This document shows positions 1 through 12,440 of a DNA stretch of 64,000 nt, piece by piece (position 1 is the stretch's first letter; each line of letters begins with the position of its first letter). The position numbers and the translations under genes are program-made. Origin of the DNA: Mobula hypostoma (lineage: Eukaryota); NCBI RefSeq assembly GCF_963921235.1, contig NC_086107.1, positions 95,110,001 through 95,174,000 of the forward strand, in the 5' to 3' direction. The notes beneath the pieces are model-generated. The model made no database searches. It was not told the DNA's origin and worked only from the letters and a program-made list of their open reading frames with translations.

Positions 1-901
1 CATAAGTACAGGTTCAATGGAAAAACTTCATACAACAGAATCTCAGACAGATAGCATCAGATATACAACATTCACAGGAAAAGCATCAACTAAACAGATG
101 GAAAATGCAACAAAAATAAATAAAGTACTTTTTCGCGTAAAGTGATCAAAGTTAAGTAGCTGTTCTCAAGTCTGGTGGGATGTGCTTTCAGGCTTTTATA
201 TCTTCTGCCCGATGGGAGAAGAGAGAATGTCTGAGGTGGGTGGGGTCTTTGGTTGTGTTGACTGCGTTACAGAGACAGTGGAAAGTGCGGACGGACTTCA
301 TGGAGGGGAGTCTGGTTCCTGTGATGTGCTGAGCTGTGTCCTCACTCTCTGCAGTTTAATGCAGTCACAGGCGGAAATATGCCGTACCAAACTGTGATAC
401 AGCTGTGGTGCATCAATTAAAAATGACAATGAAGGACACAGTCGGAACAAAACAAAATCTATTTTAGTGCTAAATAGTCACCTTATTGCTCTTCTGGTGT
501 AATGATTAGGGCTGTGCAGATTGGTTCAAGAACTGAATGGTCAGTCATGGAGCATTGTAGCATTGAAATAGGCCCTTTGGTCCATTTACCCCATGCCGAA
601 TGGTTATTCTGCCTAGTCACATCGACCCACACATAGACCATACTCCTCTCATCAATGTGCACATTCAAACCTTTCTTAAATGTTGCAGTCGAACCTGCAC
701 CCACCACTTCCACTGGCGTCTTGTTCCAAACGCATACCACCCTCTGAGTGAAGAAGTTCCCCCTCAACCTCCCTTTAAATATTTCACCTTTAACCTTCAA
801 CATGACTTCTAGTTCTGTGGAAATTTGCCCATCTATACTCATAATTTTGTATATTTCTATCATATTCCTTCGCCCTAGGGAATACAATCCTAACCTATTA
901 G

Positions 902-1497
902 TGTCGTGGTTTCTCGTTTCTTACAAACAACAAGGAGACGCAGAAAATCCTTCAAGACGTTTTAAACTTTAATTTGCAAATCAAAGCTGAGACAATCAGA
1001 AAGCTAGTAGCTGACTGCCCATCGAGGCTTGTACACAGCATTTTTTATAGCAATCTCCTATCTTAGCTACATTATCATATCCAGACGGCCTGTGATCACA
1101 TATCATCAATACATCTGCTCTCGACCTTCCACTATCGTTTTACTCCCCAATTTAATCATGTCCTAGTTTACTTTTTAGACCAGATGTCCCCTCATCCCTA
1201 ACCACAGTTATTTCTTAATTGGTCTTGTTTTGACATACTGCCACATATTTCATTACCTTACTCGCCACCGTTATCTTCCTACTTGGTTTCATTCTAGTTC
1301 TCTTCATGAATTAATAGTGATTAGGTCAAAAGTCATGGCTACATAGTGAATACCCTCTATTCAGCTAGCAGTGGTTACATAGTAAATATAGAAAATATAA
1401 TGTGTGCATTTGAGTGAATACTGAAATACTGTTGAGTAAATATTGTAAATACTGTAATACATAGAAAATACAATGTATGCGTTTACATTTTCCAATA
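902..1497 (-). repeat. ERV 3' LTR
   Basis: Near-identical to 8408-9002 (roughly a dozen differences by eye). Minus-strand TATAAAAA at ~1042-1049 and ATTAAA at 968-973. Purine-rich PPT-like CTCAAAGGGCGGA at 1501-1513 just inside. Confidence 0.95.
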
Positions 1498-1725
1498 TAA
1501 TCCGCCCTTTGAGACCCACAGGGTCTCATACAGAGAGAGAGAGGACTGAGAGTCTATGCACAAAAGCTCAAATAAAGCCATGCATTTACTCCCAAATTTG
1601 GGTTAAACTATAGTTTTCTGCGCTTAAGACTCAAAGTGTTCTCTCCCTAACTCCCTAGGCCGCTGAGCCAAAAACCCATCCCTTCGTAACTGAGACAGGA
1701 AAAAAGACTCGGGAGCCTTCACAGC

Positions 1726-3368
1726 CTAATCCCCACATATCTCATCTCTCTCCTGTTCGTCTTGCGTGTCTCGTAGACTGTACGAATACATCATTGGTGT
1801 CTCCTTCTCCATAGGGCTCGACCCAACAATTTCCAGGAGCATTGGAAACCGTTTCATTGCAGCACGCACTACAAGCGACTTGAGGCATGGAAGAAAACAG
1901 CACAGAATGACCGCACAGCTTAGCAATACAATACCAATGGTTACTGCAATCTTGGTCAGCCATGCTCCCCATCCTCCTAGTTTACTATTTAACCAGTCAA
2001 AGAACTGATGTCCAAACCCTGCATTTTGTTTAACTTCCTTTCTTAAATTTTTCAGTTTATTCATTGCTCTGGTAAACGATCCCTCCAGACTAGCATTATT
2101 TGGTATAAAAGTACAGCACTGTTCCCCAAGCATTACACAAACTCCTCCTTTCTCTGCCAATAGCCAGTCTAGTACCTGTCTATTCTGCCACGCCACTCTG
2201 CTGGTTGCATCTAGCTGCTGCCCCAAGGCCTCTAGTGCATCATCAGTGTAGTTAATGAATCTCTGTTGATTATAATATATATAATTTATCCATTCAACAT
2301 TTTTACTAACCCCTATTATAGGTGTAAGTGCCTCCCAGCCCGCAGCAATCTCATTTCTTGCCTTAAATTCATCAGGTATACCTCTCGGCTGTCCTATACT
2401 GTCGATTTGGATTGTTGGATCAGGTTCATATTTTCTCTTCCTTCGTCGCAGTATCTGCTGCTTCAGAGCGTCAAATTGTACTTCAGGGGATACTACAACT
2501 TCTTGAATCAGCATAACTCGTGTACATGTACCTGTCCAACCGAGGGGGAGCGTGGATCTCAGACCTCCCTCCTTCCCACAGAGCCACCAGGTATCTGCTA
2601 ACAGGATGGTCTGGGCATCCAGTGCACCATCGGGCGGAGGGGTACCTGTCTTGTATCTCTGGCCTGGGGTTACATCCCAAGTCTTAGCACAGTTACCACT
2701 GAAATGTCCAACCAAGAGATCACCCGTCCGTGTGAAACATTCATAACTCAAATGCTCCTGCACTTTGAGCTTTCCCAAAGTGGGTGTTTGGCTTCTTTTA
2801 TTCATAGCCCACGGTCTGCTGTAATTGCGGTTAGAGGCAAGCTTGTTTTGATCATACTGCGAGGAAGCCTGGTATAACATACACCAATAAGGGCACATTG
2901 GTGTGTTATCAATACATTTCCGATAACAAGGATCTATCCTGCTACAAATTCCCATACTGCAGGTCTTGACTATACTTGGACACTGCTGCGCACACTGCCC
3001 CCTCCGCTCCTTTCGCCGTTGCGTGCAGGTGGAAGAGTTGTATGGCATGGGGACTACATATTGCACTGGACTTGCCCTTGAGCATAGATAACAATTCTGT
3101 CTCTTCATCATCCCTGCTGTATAATTTGCCCATTGGTACCACGTGTTCTGGTACCATGGTACGGAGATAACCATTGTGCTCCTCTTACTCCTTTCTCTCA
3201 GATTTGGTGGGATCCTAACAGTCCCATGCCACATCTGCCAAATTAATGGTCTCCAAATCTGCACAAGATCTGAGTGTATCATCCCGGGGGGTGGGGGGGG
3301 GGGTGCGGGACTGGTCGCCCCCAAGTCGTCCCCATTATCTGGAAGAGTACTACCATCCATAACCCCAT
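1726..3368 (-). CDS. env: ERV envelope glycoprotein (gamma-type), single -1 indel in a G11 run
   Basis: Signal-like MGLWMVVLFQIMGTTWG from ATG 3368 in the pol+1 frame. SU CxxC (CYLC), furin site RRRKR, ISD-like WQNRQVLDWLLAEKGGVC, CX6CC (CVMLGEQCC), TM anchor IAVTIGIVLLSCAVILCC, stop at 1726. Confidence 0.88.
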
Positions 3369-5830
3369 CCTTAGGATCTTCGGGCCTGTCCTCAGGACCA
3401 AAAATTTCCCTTATTACTCGGTCAAGTTCCTGCGGTTCAGTGTCAGCTTCTTGTTGCTCTTGTCTGTCCCCTACTGTTTGTTCCTCTTCACCACTTACCT
3501 CGGGTGGCCCACCTGACTGTACCTGCGGGATTGCTCTAGTGCAGTGATTGAGATGATACCAGGTGGAGCGTCCTTCCACTTGAACTGCGGTGGGTGATGC
3601 TTTGGTCACTGTAAAGAGCCCTTGCCTTCTGGGTTCGTTCCACTTTTTTCGAAACGCTCGCACGTAGACCTGATCGCCTGGCTTGATTGGTCCTTCCCCT
3701 TGATCAATCTCTGGCTCTTTCTGTTTTTCCTGTACATAAATAGACTTATGCATCATAGTTAATTGCCGCATGCATTGTTTTAATTCCAATTCCAGTTGTT
3801 CTAAACTAGGCCCTTTGTATGGTCCTCTCCACTGGGGCACTGGCATGGGCCTTCCGGTTAGCATTTCATGCGGTGTTAGACACGTCATCCGATTAGTCTG
3901 CATGCGGTAACTCATTAATGCTAATGGTGGTGCATCGACCCAATTAAGTTTAGTATCTGCACAGATTTTGTTTAGTTTGGTTTTTAAGGTCCCGTTAATT
4001 CTTTCCACCATACCCTGCGACTGAGGGTGATACACACATCCAAATCTCTGCTTTATTCTCAGTGCTCGCAGAACTAACTTGACCACTTTTTGAATGAAAG
4101 CTGAACCATTGTCTGAGCTAATTTCTGTCGGTATCCCAAACCTTGGGATCACTTCGTTTGTCAGGAATTTCACCACTGTTCCTGCCCCTTGATCTTTCGA
4201 GGGTGCTGCCTCTACCCATCTGCTGAATCTGTCCATTACCATCAACATGTATCTTTTCCCTCTTACTGTTTTTATCATGTCTACATAGTCAATCACTTGG
4301 TGTTTAAATGGCCCTTCAGGTACGGGTATATGACCTATTGGGGTTGTAATTCCTTTCCGATTATTATTCTGCACACATATCTCGCACTGTGACAACACAT
4401 GGTCTACTGAAGCCTGTAAATAAGGCGACCAAAATCCATTCTTTTTTATTTTTCTTATTACTTCCCCCCTTGCACAATGATCCATCCCATGTGCTTCTGA
4501 GATCAGGATAGTCAGTAAAGGGGTGGGAGCTACCAGTAGGCCATCTTCCGTGGTCCATAGGCCTTCTGGGATTTGCTTGCCCCCCCCCCCCACTTCGTCT
4601 CCACAGTGTTTGTTCTGCCAAAGTTGCCTTTCCCTGTATTTCAATTAGGTCCTCTACCATAGGTTCCGGCTCTAGACTTACCTGGGGTGCGCTGACAACG
4701 GATGTACACCCTGACGCTTTCCTGGCTGCTTCATCTGCAGCTTGATTTCCCCTTGTTACTGTATCGTTTCCTTTTTTATGTCCCTGGCATTTTACTATAG
4801 CCAGTGCTTTAGGTTTCATCAGCGCTTTTATTAGATCTAAAATCCGCTGACAGTGCTGTATGGGATCTCCACTGCTCTTTTTAAAACCTCTCTGTTTCCA
4901 CACTGTAGATTACTCCCCAAGCTTGTATGTCCTACTTCCTTCATTATTTTCCTTAGTGGCGTTACAATTTCAGCATATTCCCCAATCCAATCTGAACTAT
5001 ATCCTGTCAGTCCCAGAAACGTCATCATCTGTCTCACTGTCTGGGGTTTGAGAGCTTTAGTTATAGCCTCAATTTGATCCGGCGCTATCGCCTTCACTCC
5101 CTTGGATATCACTCTACCTAGGTATTCTACCTGTTGCTTGCAAAATTGCAGCTTCTTTCTAGATACCTTATGCCCTCCATGCGCCAGTCTCTCTAAAAGG
5201 GTTATGGTATCCTGTTCACACTGTCCCTCACTCTCGGAGCAAATCAACAAATCATCCACATACTCTATCAATGTACTTTCCAACGATATGCCCTCTAGGT
5301 CCGCTTTTAACTCTTGATTAAATACGTGTGGTGAATGTTTAAATCCTTGAGGCATTCTAGTGTAGGTATACTGGTTATTTCTGTGTGTAAATGCAAATAG
5401 ATACTGACACTGATCTGCCAGGGGAACGCTGAAAAAAGCCGAACACAAATCAATCACTGAAAAATAGTCTGCCTCTGGTGGAACATTAGTCAAGAGCGTG
5501 TGTGGGTTGGGAACTACCGCTGGCCAGTCTTTCATTACCTCATTCACCGCTCGCAAGTCATGCACCAGTCTCCATTTAGATTTATCCGCTTTAAGGACAG
5601 GTAACAGTGGGGTATTACATGGGCTGTCTGTCCTTAAGTACTCCTGCCTCCAGTAGCCCCTGTATCGTTGGCGCTATTCCCTCTTCTGCCTCTGGTTTCA
5701 GGGGATATTGTGGTCTCCTGGGTGGAACTGCTCCCTTTTTCAGCTTTATTTCTACTGGACTAGCTGTTCTTATTTTCCCTACATCCGTGTCATGTTGTGA
5801 CCACAGAATAGATGGTAACCTATCTAGCCT
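3215..5830 (-). pseudogene. pol: ERV pol: RT, C-terminal RNase H and integrase; protease and connection domain absent
   Basis: RT motifs QYPL, HDLRAVN, IDLCSAFFS, RMPQGF, YVDD. RNase H tail WKQRGF...VKCQGH...GNQAAD. Integrase HHCC, D-D-E (IDY, SDNG, VERINGTLK) and a GPY/F-like region. Frameshifts near 5625, 4903, 4585 and 3295. Confidence 0.93.
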
Positions 5831-7750
5831 GTTATCTCTCTGCCCCCTTCCTTGGGATTTCCAGTCCTGTCTGGGCTGCTGTTTAAATTTATTCTGTCCC
5901 TGATAGGGCATTTGCGAGAAAAGCTCCCTCAAAGACGTTTATTATTGGCATGGGGTTTTCCGGACTCTGTCTTACGGCACGACCGGTCCCTCCATATAAT
6001 GGCATTTCATTCATTTCAACGGCTGTGCTTAAATCGGTCATTGCTGGCTGCATCTTCTTGCCTTTTTCTTTTTCCTTTTTAAGTTCTCCAAGCTGCGTTT
6101 GTATCAGCTTTCTTTGCTTCTTGCTGCTCAGTCAACTTTCGTTTGTCTTTTCGATATTTTTCGACCGTATGGGCTACGTGGTCCCTGAATTCCTGTGGGG
6201 TCATTGACATCAGTCCGGCCACTTCCTCAAGTTTAGACTTAACTTGGGAAGGCATCGCATCCAAAACAGCACTTCGGAACATCCAGGTCATAAACGGGTT
6301 GCCTTCCACCTCTTGTTCAGTTTCCAGTCTCCCACCTTTTCAACTGATTTTCTATGTAGGCTACTGGATTTTCAGTGTCTCCCAGTGGATCCCTTTTCAT
6401 GGCTTTGGGGTCCATTTTGGGTGGATAGAGCTCCCTGAGGGCCCCCCATACCCTCTGCCTCACTGTGTCAAATCTGGCCCCGTCAATCAGTGTGCTGTCC
6501 GCATTCTGTATGCCAGCCGCTTCCATCAGCTCTCGCAGTCCGGAGGTTCCCATCAGCCTTATCAGCAGCGCCTTCAAATCTCCCATAGCCAACATTCGTC
6601 CCGTGGTTTCTTCCTCAAAGGCCCTAATCCATTTCCCTGCACCCTCATGTAGGCTGGGCAGGGTGTTTTTCAGCCCTTCCAGGTCCTGGGATCCCCAAGG
6701 AATATACTGTACTTGTTCCAATCCTTTTACTAACAACGGCATCATTCTTCCTCTCCTTTCCCACATCTCCTGACTCTCCTCCTCGCCTGACTCCCCATCT
6801 GTTTCTGAGCACGTTTTCACTGGCTGCCACATGATTCTTTCCGGGGTTTCCTTTCTCCCTTGGCCTCCTCGTGGAGTTCTTTCTTTCTGCCTTGAGCTAG
6901 CATTTGCTTTGGCCCATGCGAAATCCTCAAACTCTCGTTGGAAATTCAGTCTGCGCTGTAATTCCCTAATCTCTCCCTCTGTTTCTAATATCTGCCTTTT
7001 CACTCTCTCTTTTTCCCCTTCAAGGCTCTTGTCTCCTATCCTCTGCCTACATTCTCCGGCACCCTCTCTTTCGCTACTTAACTCTTGCCCACCCGACAAG
7101 TTACCTTCTGCTCTAGCCTGCTCAGCTCCGTGTCCATGTAACAAAGATTTCTCTTCATCCCTTTTCGCTCTTAATTCCTGTAACCCTTTGATCTCTTCTT
7201 CTATTTCCCTTTTCTCCTGCTCCTTTTCGTGATTCTTTCTTTCTTCCTCGGTATCCCAGCCTATAATTTCTCCATTTAGATCCACTCTTCCTGTTATCAT
7301 CGGACACTGCTTAAGGGTTTTTCTCTCGTAATAGGGAGGAGGTTTTTCTACGTCTTTCAGGTCTGGGTATAGAGCCGAAGCCGGCTCCCTGTTATGCTTT
7401 TCCTTTTCTTTATCAGCCTGCTCGTTTCGTTTCTCAGTGTCTTTTCTACTTACTATTAATATACCTCCCGTCTTTCTTAATCTTTCTCCCTCCAGCCTAA
7501 AGAGTTTTAACACTTCAATTTCTTGTTCCCTTTTTCCTTCTCTTTTCTTAGATTTATCTTTGGGTTTGTGATTTTTAATTAGCGCTTCCATTTCCTCACA
7601 TAAGCTTACATCAAACGTTCCTTCTCTTGGCCATTTCGTGACCAGTTCTTTAGTTCTTTTTTCCCATTTTTCTGAAATTTCCACGATCTTACCTTGACAC
7701 ACCGGGAATTTTCTGCTCAATAGTTCTACTGCTGTTCCTTTCTCTGTCAT
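5830..7750 (-). pseudogene. gag: ERV gag (frameshifted; nucleocapsid zinc knuckle missing)
   Basis: 477-aa ORF 6317..7750 with WPxEGTFD, LYPDL and PPPY late-domain motifs and a capsid-like region. It continues in shifted frames (6079..6309, then ~5932-5830). Confidence 0.85.
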
Positions 7751-8385
7751 GTTGCTCTCTTTTTCCTTTTTCTATTATGGTATTTTTAGAATCTCACTAC
7801 TTGCCTATTTAATAGTACTATTTTTCTAACTCTATTTCTATGCCTAGCCTTATGGTTTATCTCACCAGCGTCTGAATTCTCTATCAAACTATCTTTGTCT
7901 CTTACTACGTTCTGCCCGTGCAGATCCCTACTTAGGGCGATATCCACAGAACCTTTTACACCTCGCCTATGCAGACCCTTACACTTCTTAAGGCGGTATT
8001 CACGAGGATTTTTAATTCTCCTTCCCTGCCTGTTCAGACCTCCGTTTCGTGCGAAGCGGTATCCACAGGGACTTACCAACACCACGTGGAACTTTCTTAC
8101 TTATCTTGTACTTACCCCCACTGCCGTGCTCTTGATTAATCCTCTGAGCCTCCTTTTATCCCCGATTCTGCCAGATTCTTTGGATCGGAGAGACCTTTCG
8201 GCAGTTGCTTCACACTTCTGAGTCCCCGAGACCCCCCAAAACCAACAGAATTCTTAGTCCGAATTATCGCAAAAAGCGCTCACTTTTTTCTTTGGGTGCA
8301 CCCTTAATTATGTTAGCCTCGTGAGGGTCCCCGAGACCGGGAAGCGTCCCAATCTGCCGTTCCCTTCCTCGCGGGTCTCTATCCG

Positions 8386-8403
8386 ATCCTGTTCGTGACG
8401 CCA
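8386..8403 (-). promoter_or_regulatory. Primer binding site, complementary to the tRNA-Ser(CGA) 3' end
   Basis: Minus strand TGGCGTCACGAACAGGAT. The plus strand ATCCTGTTCGTGACGCCA equals the last 18 nt of vertebrate tRNA-Ser(CGA) as I recall it. Confidence 0.8.
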
Positions 8404-8407
8404 ATTT

Positions 8408-9002
8408 TGTCGAGGTTTCTCGTTTCTTACAAACAACAAGGAGACGCAGAAAATCCTTCAAGACGTTTTAAACTTTAATTTGCAAATCAAAGCTGAGACA
8501 ATCAGAAAGCTAGTAGCTGACTGCCCATCGAGGCTTGTACACAGCATTTTTTATAGCAATCTCCTATCTTAGCTACATTATCATATCCAGACGGCCTGTG
8601 ATCACATATCAATACATCCGCTCTCGACCTTCCACTATTGTTTTACTCCCCAATTTAATTATGTCCTAGTTTACTTTTTAGACCAGGTGTCTCCTCATCC
8701 CTAACCACAGTTATTTCTTAATTGGTCTTGTTTTGACATACTGCCACATAGTTCATTACCTTACTTTCATTACCGTTATCTTCCTACTTGGTTTCATTCT
8801 AGTTCTCTTCATGAATTAATAGTGATTAGGTCAAAAGTCATGGCTACATAGTGAATACCCTCTATTCAGCTAGCAGTGGTTACATAGTAAATATAGAAAA
8901 TATAATGTGTGCATTTGAGTGAATACTGAAATACTGTTGAGTAAATATTGTAAATACTGTAATACATAGAAAATACAATGTATGCGTTTACATTTTCCAA
9001 TA
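8408..9002 (-). repeat. ERV 5' LTR
   Basis: Direct repeat of 902-1497. Ends ...CGACA on the minus strand and is followed 4 nt later by the PBS. Confidence 0.95.
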
Positions 9003-9792
9003 TTAGCTCAGGTCTTCAAGTCCCGGCAGCATCCACGTAAATTTTCTGTATTCTTTCAATCCAACTGAAAACTTTCCTGTACATAGGTGACTTTAGAACT
9101 ACACACAAATTAGGCCTCACCAATGTCTCATACAACTTCTCCTGTAGGCAGTATTTTGATTTATAAAGGCCAATGTGCCAGAAGTTCTCTTTGCAACACT
9201 ATCTACCTGTGACGTCACGTTCTTGGAAATATTATCTGTATGCCCATATCCCTCTACTTTACTGTACTCAATGCCCCTAATGTTCACTGTGTAAGTCCTA
9301 CAAATCTGCAAGCCTCATACTTTGCTGCATGAAATTGAATCTGCCATTTTCAACCCATTTTTCCAGCTAGTCTAGATTCTGCTGCAGGTTTTGACAGCCT
9401 TCCTCACTACCACAGCCTCAATCTTGGTGTCATTCAAAGTTCAAAGTAAATTTATTATCACCATATACAACCCTGAGATTCATTTTCTTGTGGGCATTCT
9501 CAATAAATCTATAGAATGATAACCATTATAGAATCAATGAAAGAAAGACTGCCCAACTAGGGGGTTCAACCAGAGTGCAGAAGACAATAACTGTGCAAAA
9601 ACAAAAAGAAGAAATAATAAATAAATAAGCAATAAATATTAAGAATGTGAGATAAAGAGTGCTTAAAAGTGAGTCCATGGGTTGTGGGAACATTTCAATG
9701 AATGGGGGAGATAAGTTATCCCCTTTGGTTCAAGAACCTGATGGTTGAGGGGTAATAACTGTTTCTGAACCTGGTGCTGGGGGTCCCTGATG

Positions 9793-12440
9793 CTATAACC
9801 ATATAACAATTACAGCACGGAAACAGGCCATCTCGGCCCCTCTATTCCATGCCAAACTCTTACTCTCACCTAGTCCCACCGACCTGCACTCAGCCCATAA
9901 CCCTCCGTTCCTTTCCTGTCCATATATCTATCCAATTTAACTTTAAATGACAACATCGAACCTGTCTCAACCACTTCTGCTGGAAGCTCATTCCATGCAG
10001 CTACCACCCTCTGAGTAAAGAAGTTCCCCCTCATGTTACCCCTAAACTTTTGCCCTTTAACTCTCAACTCATGTCCTCTTGTTTGAATCTCCCCCACTCT
10101 CAATGGAAAAAGCCTATCCACATCAACTCTATCTATCCCCCTCATAATTTTAAATACCTCTATCAAGTCCCCCCTCAACCCTTCTACGCTCCAAAGAATA
10201 AAGACCCAACTTGTTCAACCTTTCTCTGTAACTTAGGTGATGAAACCCAGGCAACATTCTAGTAAATCTTCTCTGTACTCTCTCAATTTTGTTGACATCT
10301 TTCCTATAATTTGGTGACCAGAACTGTACACAATACTCCAAATTTGGCCTCACCGATGCCTTGTACAATTTCAACCCAACTCCTATACTCAATGCTGTGA
10401 TTTATAAAGGCCAGCATACCAAAAGCTTTCTTCACCACCCTATCCACATGAGATTCCACCTTCAGGGAACTATGCACCATTATTCCTAGATTCCTCTGCT
10501 CTACTGCATTCTTCAATGCCCGACCATTTACCCTGTATGTCCTATTTTGATTAGTCCTACCAAAATGTAGCACCTCACATTTATCAGCATTAAAGTCCAT
10601 CTGCCATCTTTCAGCCCACTCTTCTAAGTGGTCTAAATCTCTCTGCAAGCTCTGAAGACCTACTTCATTATCCACAACTCCACCTATCTTAGTATCATCT
10701 GCATACTTACTAATCCAATTGACCACCCCATCATCCAGATCATTTATACGTGTAATATATATATGATGGATGCTGCTTTCCCGCAACAGCATGTGGGAGG
10801 ACTTGGAATGTGTGGGAGGGTTTCACCTGCAAATTTGCTGATCCAGTTTATCATATTATCATCCAGATTATTAATATAAATGACAAACAACACTCCTAGC
10901 ACCGATCCCTGCGAAACACCATGAATCACTGACCTCCAGCTAGAATAAGTGCCTTCGACCACTACTCTCTGTCTTCTGTGGGTAAGCCAGTTCTGAATCC
11001 AAATGGCCAATTCCCCATGGATCCCATACTTCTTAATCTTCTGGATGTGCCTACCATGAGGGACCTTATTAAACACCTTACTAAAAGCCATATAGACAAC
11101 ATCCACAGCAATACCTTCATCAATCGCCCTTGTCACCTTTTCAGAAAACTCAATCAAGTTAGTAAGACATTTCTTGCCCGCACAAAGCCATGCTGGTATT
11201 CACTGATTGGGCTATGTTTTTCCAAATGCTGGTAAATCCTGTCCCTAAGAATTCTGTCTGGTAATTTCCTTACCACCAGTGTGAGACTCACTGGTCTATA
11301 GTTTCCAGGATTATCCCTGGTTCCCTTCTTCAGTAATTGACCATCTGCTGCCACTCGAGCTAAGGCAGTGTTGAATCCAGTTACTATTTCATGCTAAATG
11401 CCCAGTGACGGAAGCTCCTGACCAGCCTCTCATGTAGGACTTTGGCAAAGGCCTTGCTAAAGTCCATGCAGACAACATCTACTGCCTTTCCTTCATAAAT
11501 TTTCCTGGTAACCTCCTCGAAAAGCATTAAGATTGGTTAGATATGACCTACCACACATAAATCCATGTTGACTATCCCTAATCAGGCCTCGTCTATCCAA
11601 ATACTTGTATATCCCATCCCTTACAATACTTTCCATGACTGGTGAAGGGTCTCGGCCGAAAACAATGACTTTTTACTCTTTTTCCATAGATGCTGCCTGG
11701 CCTGCTGATTTCCTCCAGCATTTTGTATGTGTTGCTTAAATTTTCAACATATGCAGATTTTCTCTTGTTTGTGTCCCAATTTAAAATCTCAACCAGAAGA
11801 CCAGTCCTATCCTTCTCCATAATTATCTTGAAACTAATGGAATTATGATCACTAGATCCAAAGTGTTCCCTTAGAAACATTTCTGCCATCTATCCTGTCT
11901 CATTCCCTAATAGGAGATCCAGTATTGCGTTCTCTCCAGCTGGGACCTCTACATATTGACAAACTCTATCCCTTTCAGCATTTTTACATTATGGGAGTTT
12001 GAGTCAATATGTCTAAAGTTAAAATCACCTACTATCACAACTTTGTTTCTTGCAACAGTATGCAATCTCTCCATAGATTAACTCTTCTAAATCCTGCGGA
12101 ATTTTGGATTGTCTGTATTATAATACCATTAACGAGTTCATCCTTTTCTTATTCCTCAGTTCCATCTCAGTGAATGAGCCCTCCTGTGTGTCTTGTCTGA
12201 GAACCTCCATGACATTTTCCCTGACTAGTAATGCCACCGCACCATCACTAATACCTCCTGCTCTATCATGTCTACAGCAACAGATCTCGGAACACTGAGC
12301 TGCCAGCCCTGCCTCTCCTGCAACCAAGTCTTTAATGGGTACATTATCTTAATTACATGTGCTGATCCAGGCTCTAAGCTGATCCGCCTTACCTACAATA
12401 CTCCTTGCATTGAAATGTACACAGTTCAGAATATTACTTC
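9793..12440 (-). mobile_element. Nested CR1 LINE fragments (RT and APE pieces)
   Basis: ORFs with [35 protein letters not shown]; short repeat tail near 9795. Confidence 0.8.

What the first reader, a model, noticed from the sequence alone, without database searches (positions are those of the whole stretch)
1726..3368. Hidden, nearly intact env: the 972-aa 'integrase-env fusion' is a one-base homopolymer frameshift
The ORF track fuses integrase to env. In the pol+1 frame, ATG 3368 (just after TAA TAA) opens a signal-peptide-like MGLWMVVLFQIMGTTWG-RPVPH. Adding one G to the G11 run at 3293-3303 joins this to the rest of env, giving 547 aa with no other lesion. The same base lets pol end naturally (RDDTLRSCADLETINLADVAWDC*, TAG 3217-3215). 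Env keeps its CxxC, furin, ISD, CX6CC and TM motifs, while gag and pol carry two large deletions and several frameshifts. It is therefore either an expressible envelope (candidate restriction factor or fusogen/immunosuppressive capture) or a real IN-Env chimera.
Basis: partly seen in the sequence, partly recalled or inferred. Interest (0 to 1): 0.8.

Follow-up and report, generated by a model that had tools for sequence, protein, structure and literature searches.

The report
Broken env start in ray provirus
This is the pol-env junction of a decaying endogenous retrovirus in a ray-like genome, where a variable run of C's separates the envelope gene from its own signal peptide and accidentally fuses it to integrase; it looks ordinary rather than a captured gene.

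Summary
An 8.1-kb LTR-flanked provirus lies on the minus strand (902-9003). A C11 run (G11 on +, 3293-3303) sits where three frames meet. The integrase frame runs on into env, giving the 972-aa ORF. A hydrophobic leader ORF (ATG 3368) stops after 29 codons. A third frame ends at TAG 3217-3215.

The leader is real env sequence. The closest relative, a Mobula hypostoma gene model (93% identical), starts with the same leader in frame with the env body. A public contig shows the same in-frame form.

The break is not shown to be a one-base slip. In those in-frame relatives the C-rich tract is 14 nt shorter. Only contigs were available, not raw reads, so the run length at this locus could not be counted.

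The env body (519 codons) is open but shows neutral decay. It has lost a conserved SU cysteine and carries 5 private changes at 161 invariant positions. The number of replacements matches the LTR-based neutral expectation. Env is not spared frame-breaking lesions relative to gag-pol (P about 0.3-0.5).

The verdict is a defective member of the known gamma-type-Env ERVs of cartilaginous fish. The IN-Env ORF is a by-product, and there is no support for co-option.

The parts
902..1498 (-). 3' LTR
   Evidence: Direct repeat with 8408-9003. 10 substitutions in 594 aligned positions, with 2 gap events.
1726..3285 (-). env body: 519 open codons plus the stop at 1726-1728. It lies in the same frame as integrase upstream.
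   Evidence: ORF list. Pfam TLV_coat 49.4 bits against a cutoff of 22.5. 93% identical to P0002. Matches syncytin-2 7oix at E 5.3e-13.
3286..3304 (-). C-rich tract where the frames part: A, C11 (3303-3293), A, C6. It encodes proline in every frame.
   Evidence: In one X2 contig 14 letters are left out at 3291 (111.1 of 134.4 depth). P0002 reads RPVLPPGM at this point.
3279..3368 (-). env leader ORF (signal-peptide-like), 29 codons, out of register with the env body. Its stop TGA 3281-3279 overlaps ATG 3282.
   Evidence: tblastn to P0002 residues 1-18 gives 94% identity. Hydropathy.
3215..3303 (-). Third frame after the tract, ending at TAG 3217-3215. This is the likely natural pol end in copies whose leader and env body are in one frame.
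   Evidence: Frame arithmetic on the 14-nt-shorter form seen (inference).
3370..4579 (-). Integrase (zinc-binding, core and MLV-type C-terminal domains) plus an acidic tail.
   Evidence: Pfam rve, MLVIN_C and Integrase_H2C2. tblastn of P0122, P0123 and P0124.
4580..4591 (-). G12 run (C12 on the + strand) at the RNase H / integrase frame break.
   Evidence: Overlapping ORFs 4364-4903 and 1726-4644.
4592..4903 (-). RNase H C-terminal remnant. The junction of a deletion of about 265 aa (RT end plus RNase H start) lies at about 4903.
   Evidence: Pfam RNase_H profile positions 81-140 only. P0189 jumps 360->628 and P0123 jumps 581->845. Sequence.
4904..5890 (-). Reverse transcriptase and the pre-RT segment, with a frame break at about 5636.
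   Evidence: Pfam RVT_1. Frame change. Other copies have 2 more letters at 5633/5636. Sequence.
5891..7750 (-). gag (ATG 7750). Frame breaks lie near 6331, 6116 and 5917. Nucleocapsid and protease are missing.
   Evidence: ORF 6317-7750. P0096 tblastn shows a frame change at about 6335. Indels at 6331, 6116 and 5917 relative to other copies. Pol relatives align only from residue ~269 at 5890. Sequence.
8071..8116 (-). Leader with two consensus donor-like GTAAGT motifs (GT at 8115-8114 and 8076-8075).
   Evidence: Read directly. Use as splice donors was not tested.
8386..8403 (-). PBS-like sequence starting TGG, five bases after the 5' LTR.
   Evidence: Read. The tRNA was not identified.
8408..9003 (-). 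5' LTR
3082..3093 (-). CXXC (CYLC) of SU.
   Evidence: Conserved as C-x-x-C in 6 of 6 relatives that cover the position.
2827..2829 (-). Private Arg codon where 6 of 6 other relatives and P0002 have Cys.
2431..2451 (-). SU/TM polybasic (furin-type) site LRRRKRK.
2113..2190 (-). ISD (2140-2190) followed by CX6CC (2113-2139). The CX6CC loop carries a private Phe-to-Leu change.
1882..1962 (-). Membrane anchor, followed by a 51-residue cytoplasmic tail (1729-1881).
   Evidence: Aligned to the syncytin-2 anchor.

Best explanation
The finding is the pol-env junction of a defective class-I endogenous retrovirus that carries a gamma-type envelope gene. The provirus runs 902-9003 on the minus strand, and its closest relatives are in myliobatiform rays.

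As in related retroviruses, env starts inside the 3' end of pol in another frame. ATG 3368 opens a hydrophobic leader. In this copy a C-rich tract (3286-3304) is 14 nt longer than in relatives whose leader and env body share a frame.

That length has three consequences:
- the leader stops after 29 codons;
- the env body has no signal peptide of its own;
- the integrase frame reads straight into env, giving the 972-aa ORF.

The 972-aa ORF is therefore a by-product and not a product the element makes. Gag-pol upstream is broken in at least seven places and lacks protease. A cytosolic IN-Env protein could not fold as a glycoprotein.

The env body is still open simply because the insertion is fairly young, and it is already accumulating neutral damage.

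Shown here: the anatomy, the homology of the leader, the in-frame form in relatives, and the lesion map. Inferred: that the break is real at this locus, and that the locus is not expressed as Env.
For: - LTR pair, and gag / RT / RNase H / IN / env order on the minus strand.
- The three frames and their stops.
- P0002 (Mobula hypostoma, 454 aa, 93% identical over 83% of the query; best of 189 hits among 4294 candidates) begins with the same leader joined in frame to the env body. tblastn places its residues 1-18 and 24-454 in different window frames.
- One X2 contig (3207-3432) lacks 14 letters at 3291 and has 3 extra behind 3267. This matches P0002.
- Gag-pol lesions: frame breaks near 6331, 6116, 5917, 5636 and at the G12 run; nucleocapsid and protease missing; about 265 aa deleted at 4903.
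- No sparing of env: P = 0.48 and 0.31.
- Neutral pattern in env: 5 private changes at 161 invariant columns against 4 in P0002, each copy losing a different conserved Cys. 10 window-derived replacements against 7.5 expected from LTR K/2 = 0.0085. P(no stop) is about 0.5.
- After Met 3282 there is no hydrophobic stretch.
- No protein of 534-1701 aa in the 5.8-billion set matches the IN-tail/env-start junction (0 of 503 candidates).
Against: - The run length at this locus could not be checked. All four runs laid were contigs, not reads. Runs of 11-12 G/C are error-prone in assemblies (general knowledge).
- The second long run in the provirus (G12, 4580-4591) also sits exactly at a frame break. 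An X1 contig spanning it differs by a net single letter. That pattern is also what miscounted homopolymers would give.
- The selection tests rest on small counts: 10 polarised changes, and 30 classified differences of 471.
- Among the shown differences, env has 5 of 8 synonymous against 9 of 22 in gag-pol (Fisher P = 0.42). The direction does not exclude some constraint on env.
- Expression was not testable.
Confidence: 0.7

Rival explanations
1. Assembly miscount or allelic length variation. Under this reading the true tract, or a common allele, at this locus keeps leader and env body in one frame. The locus would then carry a complete env ORF, and pol would end at TAG 3217-3215. It would still be one of many copies of a young ERV family, with no special host role.
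For: - Both long G/C runs in the provirus coincide with frame breaks.
- An X1 contig over 3947-4905 differs from the window by one net letter across the G12 run.
- In-frame forms of the leader-env junction exist in relatives.
- The tract encodes proline in all frames, so its length can drift.
Against: - The other four small frame breaks (6331, 6116, 5917, 5636) are not in long homopolymers. Contigs of other copies lack them, so this copy does carry real indels.
- The difference from the in-frame form is 14 letters, not one.
- Long homopolymers are also true mutation hot spots.
Confidence: 0.22
2. Co-opted envelope. Under this reading the locus, perhaps through an in-frame allele, serves the host as a fusogen, an immunosuppressive factor or a receptor-blocking restriction factor in a viviparous ray.
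For: - The env body is open over 519 codons with CXXC, ISD, CX6CC, anchor and tail intact.
- Relatives are annotated 'syncytin-like'. This is an automatic name, not a test.
Against: - The leader is out of frame.
- A conserved SU cysteine, the Phe of the CX6CC loop and a conserved sequon Thr are privately changed.
- The replacement count is at the neutral expectation.
- The family is multi-copy in two organisms' runs, with hundreds to thousands of contigs laid.
- Co-option usually shows as one conserved orthologous locus, and that was not shown here.
Confidence: 0.04
3. The 972-aa ORF is a genuine integrase-envelope fusion protein with a function of its own.
For: One uninterrupted frame carries the rve, MLVIN_C and TLV_coat domains.
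Against: - The ORF opens at a TTG inside a broken pol. Upstream pol is out of frame at the G12 run and lacks protease.
- There is no signal peptide ahead of a cysteine-rich, glycosylated ectodomain.
- The close relative has the leader, not integrase, joined to env.
- No database protein of 534-1701 aa shares the junction. In the 715-2040 aa search, P0189 joins a short IN C-terminal piece to the env tail across a deletion and P0163 carries pol and env in one model. Neither was checked for this junction. This is weak evidence.
Confidence: 0.01

Closest known systems
[quoted passage not shown]
   Same: Class-I type pol with an Env that carries ISD, CX6CC and a membrane anchor. The TM N-terminus has no classical terminal fusion peptide. 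The family is multi-copy in the host.
   Different: Nothing of kind. This is one defective copy. I did not place it in that paper's nine Env types, and its supplements were not seen.
P0002, 'syncytin-B-like' gene model of Mobula hypostoma
   Same: 93% identical env body. Its leader differs at 1 of the 18 residues aligned by tblastn (94.4%).
   Different: Its leader is in frame with the body through a short tract, and it has one extra Thr. It ends before the membrane anchor (454 aa) and has lost a different conserved cysteine.
Syncytin-2 / HERV-FRD Env (PDB 7oix, 6rx3, 1y4m)
   Same: The TM ectodomain, ISD/CX6CC and anchor align (E 5.3e-13). CXXC lies near the SU N-terminus, as PMC9967133 notes for SYNC2 (passages read).
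   Different: Syncytin-2 is a single conserved, expressed, fusogenic host gene. Here the leader is out of frame, the changes look neutral, and no expression or orthology data exist.
Pol-env overlap of gammaretroviruses such as murine leukaemia virus (recalled, not from a call)
   Same: Env starts within the 3' end of pol in another frame. A frame slip in the overlap therefore fuses IN to Env.
   Different: Here the overlap would be about 150 nt and contains an expandable C tract.

Membership tests
Gamma-type retroviral Env (Pfam TLV_coat PF00429) | Profile match above the curated cutoff | tested here: met
   49.4 bits against a cutoff of 22.5, E 3.9e-13.
Gamma-type retroviral Env (Pfam TLV_coat PF00429) | ISD followed by CX6CC in TM (the signature named in PMC9967133) | tested here: met
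   ISD at 2140-2190 and CVMLGEQCC at 2113-2139. Aligned to syncytin-2 and to the 5 of 7 relatives that cover this stretch; P0004 stops before it.
Gamma-type retroviral Env (Pfam TLV_coat PF00429) | CXXC in SU for the labile SU-TM disulfide | tested here: met
   CYLC at 3082-3093. Conserved in 6 of 6 relatives that cover it.
Gamma-type retroviral Env (Pfam TLV_coat PF00429) | Polybasic SU/TM cleavage site and C-terminal membrane anchor | tested here: met
   LRRRKRK at 2431-2451 and the anchor at 1882-1962. Cleavage itself was not tested.
Gamma-type retroviral Env (Pfam TLV_coat PF00429) | N-terminal signal peptide in frame with SU | tested here: not met
   The leader ORF 3368-3279 is in another frame from the body. 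It is in frame in P0002. No signal-peptide predictor was available, only hydropathy.
Class-I (gamma/epsilon-like) ERV provirus | Paired LTRs flanking gag-pro-pol-env | tested here: met
   LTRs 97.5% alike. Gag, RT, RNase H, IN and env are in order. Protease is missing through a deletion.
Class-I (gamma/epsilon-like) ERV provirus | MLV-type integrase C-terminal domain | tested here: met
   PF18697 at 40.3 bits against a cutoff of 29.2.
Class-I (gamma/epsilon-like) ERV provirus | Target-site duplication and TG...CA LTR ends | tested here: inconclusive
   The LTR ends in CA, but its start is T(A/T)ATATT. At most a 3-base flank match (CTA) is present.
Co-opted env gene (syncytin-like) | Complete ORF including the signal peptide | tested here: not met
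Co-opted env gene (syncytin-like) | Purifying selection after integration | tested here: inconclusive
   5 of 10 private replacements fall at invariant columns, with 10 observed against 7.5 expected. This points to neutrality, but the counts are small and no codon alignment of copies was possible.
Co-opted env gene (syncytin-like) | Orthologous locus conserved across species; tissue-specific expression; fusogenic activity | not testable with these tools
   No genome is held for the window. No run on record as RNA. Only contigs were available.

The most novel reading that the evidence does not exclude
The long C tract acts as a length-variable switch in a young, multi-copy ray ERV family. Some loci or alleles, possibly this one, would then encode a complete gamma-type Env that is expressed in a matrotrophic viviparous ray and is on its way to host use as a fusogen, immunomodulator or receptor blocker. 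That would be an envelope capture caught in progress outside mammals and lizards.
Probability: 0.04. Interest if true: 0.75.

Novelty: new member of a known kind. Interest (0 to 1): 0.2.

Why it matters
As it stands the locus is mainly an annotation lesson. A long 'integrase-envelope' ORF in an ERV can be produced by a frame slip in the pol-env overlap, and homopolymer tracts are where to look. It also shows that gene models named 'syncytin-like' in ray genomes belong to a multi-copy, decaying ERV family. If an in-frame, expressed and conserved copy were found, the family would become a candidate for envelope capture in viviparous elasmobranchs. Nothing here shows that.

Tried and rejected
- Own-genome search: no genome is held for this window. 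No census of family copies or orthologous loci was possible.
- No other copy lies in the 64-kb window.
- Earlier findings of the scan: nothing by place, by sequence or by words.
- Related DNA loci: none confirmed in viral contigs (0 of 58 pattern matches) or in metagenome contigs (0 of 147).
- Protein search on the IN-tail/env-start junction: 0 of 503 candidates.
- Sequencing runs: 24 listed, the best share of words was 0.54, and no RNA holder was listed.
- All four laid runs were contigs, so the number of G's at 3293-3303 could not be counted. Transcript starts, ends and levels cannot be read either.
- X1 has no cover at 3291 and X3's cover falls there. This is a hole, not evidence.
- No leader-to-env joint appeared among the 15 joints shown. 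152 more were not shown, and the RNA label of X1 and X10 is only a guess, so nothing follows.
- dN/dS between copies was not possible because no DNA of relatives was obtainable.
- SignalP-type prediction is not on hand. Hydropathy only.
- The target-site duplication was not resolved.
- Structure prediction and complex prediction were not used. The sequence matches were already decisive for family membership.
- Supplements of the bioRxiv preprint are closed and may list this family.

Full report
**What is there**

Positions 902-9003 hold one provirus on the minus strand.
- Two 0.6-kb LTRs (902-1498 and 8408-9003) differ by 10 substitutions in 594 aligned positions and 2 gap events.
- Between them lie a TGG-initiated PBS-like sequence and a leader with two GTAAGT donor-like motifs.
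- The coding order is gag, RT, an RNase H remnant, integrase and env.
- No other copy lies in the window.
- No whole genome is held for the window.

**Check of the observation**

The + strand has G11 at 3293-3303. On the coding strand the tract reads C11, A, C6, GGG, ATG. Three frames meet here.
- The integrase frame passes through the tract into env. This gives ORF 1726-4644 (972 aa) with rve, MLVIN_C and TLV_coat in one frame.
- A second frame has TAA TAA (3416-3411), then ATG 3368 and a hydrophobic peptide, and stops at TGA 3281-3279.
- The third frame ends at TAG 3217-3215.

**The leader belongs to env**

The env body (window:1729-3285) found 189 relatives among 4294 candidates.
- The best is P0002, a Mobula hypostoma gene model named 'syncytin-B-like'. 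It is 93% identical over 83% of the query.
- Next come Hypanus sabinus and Hemitrygon akajei models, then shark and teleost Envs.
- P0002 starts with the same leader (17 of 18 residues aligned by tblastn) and continues in one frame into the env body.
- tblastn puts its residues 1-18 at 3368-3315 and residues 24-454 at 3285-1996, in different window frames.
- Shark relatives also begin with a hydrophobic segment that aligns here, though weakly at 31-35%.
- The leader's 9-residue hydropathy means reach 2.4. Nothing after the env-body Met 3282 exceeds 1.14.

**The nature of the break**

Between the leader and the env body P0002 has only three residues, where the window has the long proline-coding tract.

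I laid contigs of four public runs (two coded organisms) on 1-8407.
- One X2 contig (3207-3432) has 14 letters left out at 3291 (111.1 of 134.4 depth there).
- The same contig has three letters put in behind 3267.
- The three-letter insertion is also seen in X3 (3 contigs, 511.3 of 1352.6 depth) and in X10 (1 contig, 38.8 of 38.8).
- This is the P0002 form, in which leader and body share a frame.

So, compared with the in-frame relatives, this copy has a tract 14 nt longer. A 14-nt difference is itself out of register.

Whether this arose in one step, in several steps, or includes an assembly miscount cannot be said.

Poly-C encodes proline in every frame. Tract length therefore changes the frame but not the local peptide.

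**Gag-pol**

I ran tblastn of seven relatives against the window: pol P0189, P0122, P0123 and P0124; gag-env P0096; env P0002; IN-env P0031. Together with the indel table, this gives the following lesion map.
- Frame breaks near 6331 (one extra letter; all depth in X1, X2 and X10, and 1525.7 of 2299.5 in X3, lacks it), 6116 (5 letters missing), 5917 (one extra) and 5636 (2 missing).
- Loss of nucleocapsid, protease and the first ~270 pol residues between about 6118 and 5890.
- A deletion of about 265 residues at 4903, with micro-homology at the junction.
- A frame break inside a G12 run at 4580-4591.

These rest.

**Is env specially preserved?**

*Frame-breaking small indels.* There is 1 in 1640 nt of env against 5 in 4382 nt of gag-pol. 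P(<=1 of 6 in env) is 0.48. With the two deletions added it is 0.31.

*Openness.* From the LTR distance (K/2 = 0.0085), about 13 substitutions are expected in the env body. The chance of no stop is about 0.5.

*Replacements.*
- Window and P0002 differ at 28 of 430 aligned residues.
- I polarised these with the two Hypanus models. 10 are window-derived, 12 are P0002-derived and 6 are unresolved.
- The neutral expectation for the window is 7.5.
- 161 columns are invariant in at least four other relatives. The window alone differs at 5 of them: a conserved SU Cys to Arg, the Phe of the CX6CC loop to Leu, the Thr of a conserved sequon, and two more.
- P0002 alone differs at 4 of them, including a different Cys.
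- Five of ten private changes at invariant columns is what chance gives (P 0.30).

*Synonymous share.*
- One search showed 40 single-letter differences, with 431 more not shown. I classed the 30 that lie in coding segments.
- I dropped 10 that lie in the LTR, the 3' untranslated part or the leader.
- Env has 5 of 8 synonymous and gag-pol has 9 of 22 (Fisher P 0.42).
- The pooled synonymous excess (14 of 30 against 27% expected, P 0.014) fits variation that arose while the virus replicated. It does not point to host selection on this locus.

These tests all use small numbers, and none points to constraint on env after integration.

**What kind of Env**

- Pfam TLV_coat matches at 49.4 bits.
- PDB matches include syncytin-2 (7oix, E 5.3e-13), syncytin-1, HERV-FRD, S71 and MLV TM (12 distinct sequences).
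- CXXC, the SU/TM polybasic site, ISD, CX6CC, the anchor and the tail were all located and are conserved in relatives.
- These are the hallmarks of gamma-type Env listed in PMC9967133 (passages read).
- ERVs with such Envs are already reported from six cartilaginous fishes, some with more than 500 copies (bioRxiv 10.1101/2021.11.23.469661, passages read; supplements closed).
- Pol relatives are fish class-I Gag-Pol proteins at 50-72% identity (99 hits among 2774 candidates).

**The IN-Env ORF**

- It opens at a TTG inside a pol that is out of frame upstream and lacks protease.
- Its Env part has no signal peptide.
- The close relative joins the leader, not integrase, to env.
- No protein of 534-1701 aa in the large database shares the junction (0 of 503 candidates). 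This is weak evidence.

I read the 972-aa ORF as a by-product of the frame break.

**Verdict**

The hidden env start is real. The interpretation that env is selectively kept, or that the chimera is real, is not supported. The locus is a defective, fairly young member of a known kind of element.

The main open point is whether the assembled lengths of the two long G/C runs are true. A second long run also sits exactly at a pol frame break, and an X1 contig differs there by one net letter. I therefore give about 0.2 to an in-frame tract or allele at this locus. Even then, it would be one complete env among many copies of the family.

The functional test of this locus would need a mended gene and is referred.

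Noticed in passing
window 4580-4591: A second long homopolymer (C12 on the + strand, G12 on the coding strand) lies exactly at the RNase H / integrase frame break. An X1 contig over 3947-4905 differs from the window by one net letter. An X10 contig over 4471-4710 differs by seven. By my frame arithmetic either length would put the two pol parts in one frame. The position of those gaps was not shown.
   Followed up: partly
window 3178-3198: A polybasic R-x-K/R-R motif (RERSKRS) lies about 35 residues into the env body, ahead of CXXC. A polybasic motif is present at the aligned place in all 6 relatives that cover it, rays and sharks. It may be a second furin-type cleavage that removes an N-terminal leader peptide.
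   Followed up: no
window 3279-3282: The stop of the leader ORF (TGA) overlaps the first ATG of the env-body frame in the arrangement ATGA. Any reinitiation there would give an Env without a signal peptide.
   Followed up: no
window 1-8407 against contigs of X1, X2, X3 and X10: Differences between this copy and other copies are mostly transitions and are strand-asymmetric. Coding-strand G/A differences outnumber C/T differences, for example in X2 79+76 against 44+47 places. 14 of 30 classified differences are synonymous against about 27% expected (P 0.014). Both points suggest that much of the between-copy variation arose during viral replication, not in the host genome.
   Followed up: partly
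window 4876-4905: Contigs from X1 and X10 start at 4876 and run on to 5334 and 5209. They carry 28 letters on the far side of the deletion junction at 4903 (table 8). That is below the tool's 31-letter rule for bridging. It is only a hint that the RT/RNase H deletion is shared by other copies or by the other organism.
   Followed up: no
proteins P0071, P0080, P0031, P0096, P0189: Several gene models in skates and rays join env TM parts to other pieces. P0071 and P0080 join them to Ig-domain proteins (P0071 is named CEACAM5-like, Rhinoraja; P0080 has V-set plus TLV_coat). P0096 joins gag CA to env TM. P0031 and P0189 join IN to env across deletions. These may be annotation of ERV debris, or in the Ig cases possibly real host-env fusions.
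   Followed up: no
window 483-887 and 9870-10178: LINE-like ORFs flank the provirus on both sides and share a 72%-alike repeat (676-801 against 9943-10068). Contig depth is very high over 563-843, as expected for an abundant host repeat.
   Followed up: no
window 896-905, 1494-1503, 8999-9010: The LTR starts T(A/T)ATATT rather than TG, and the flanks share at most CTA. The target-site duplication and the exact LTR start are unclear.
   Followed up: partly
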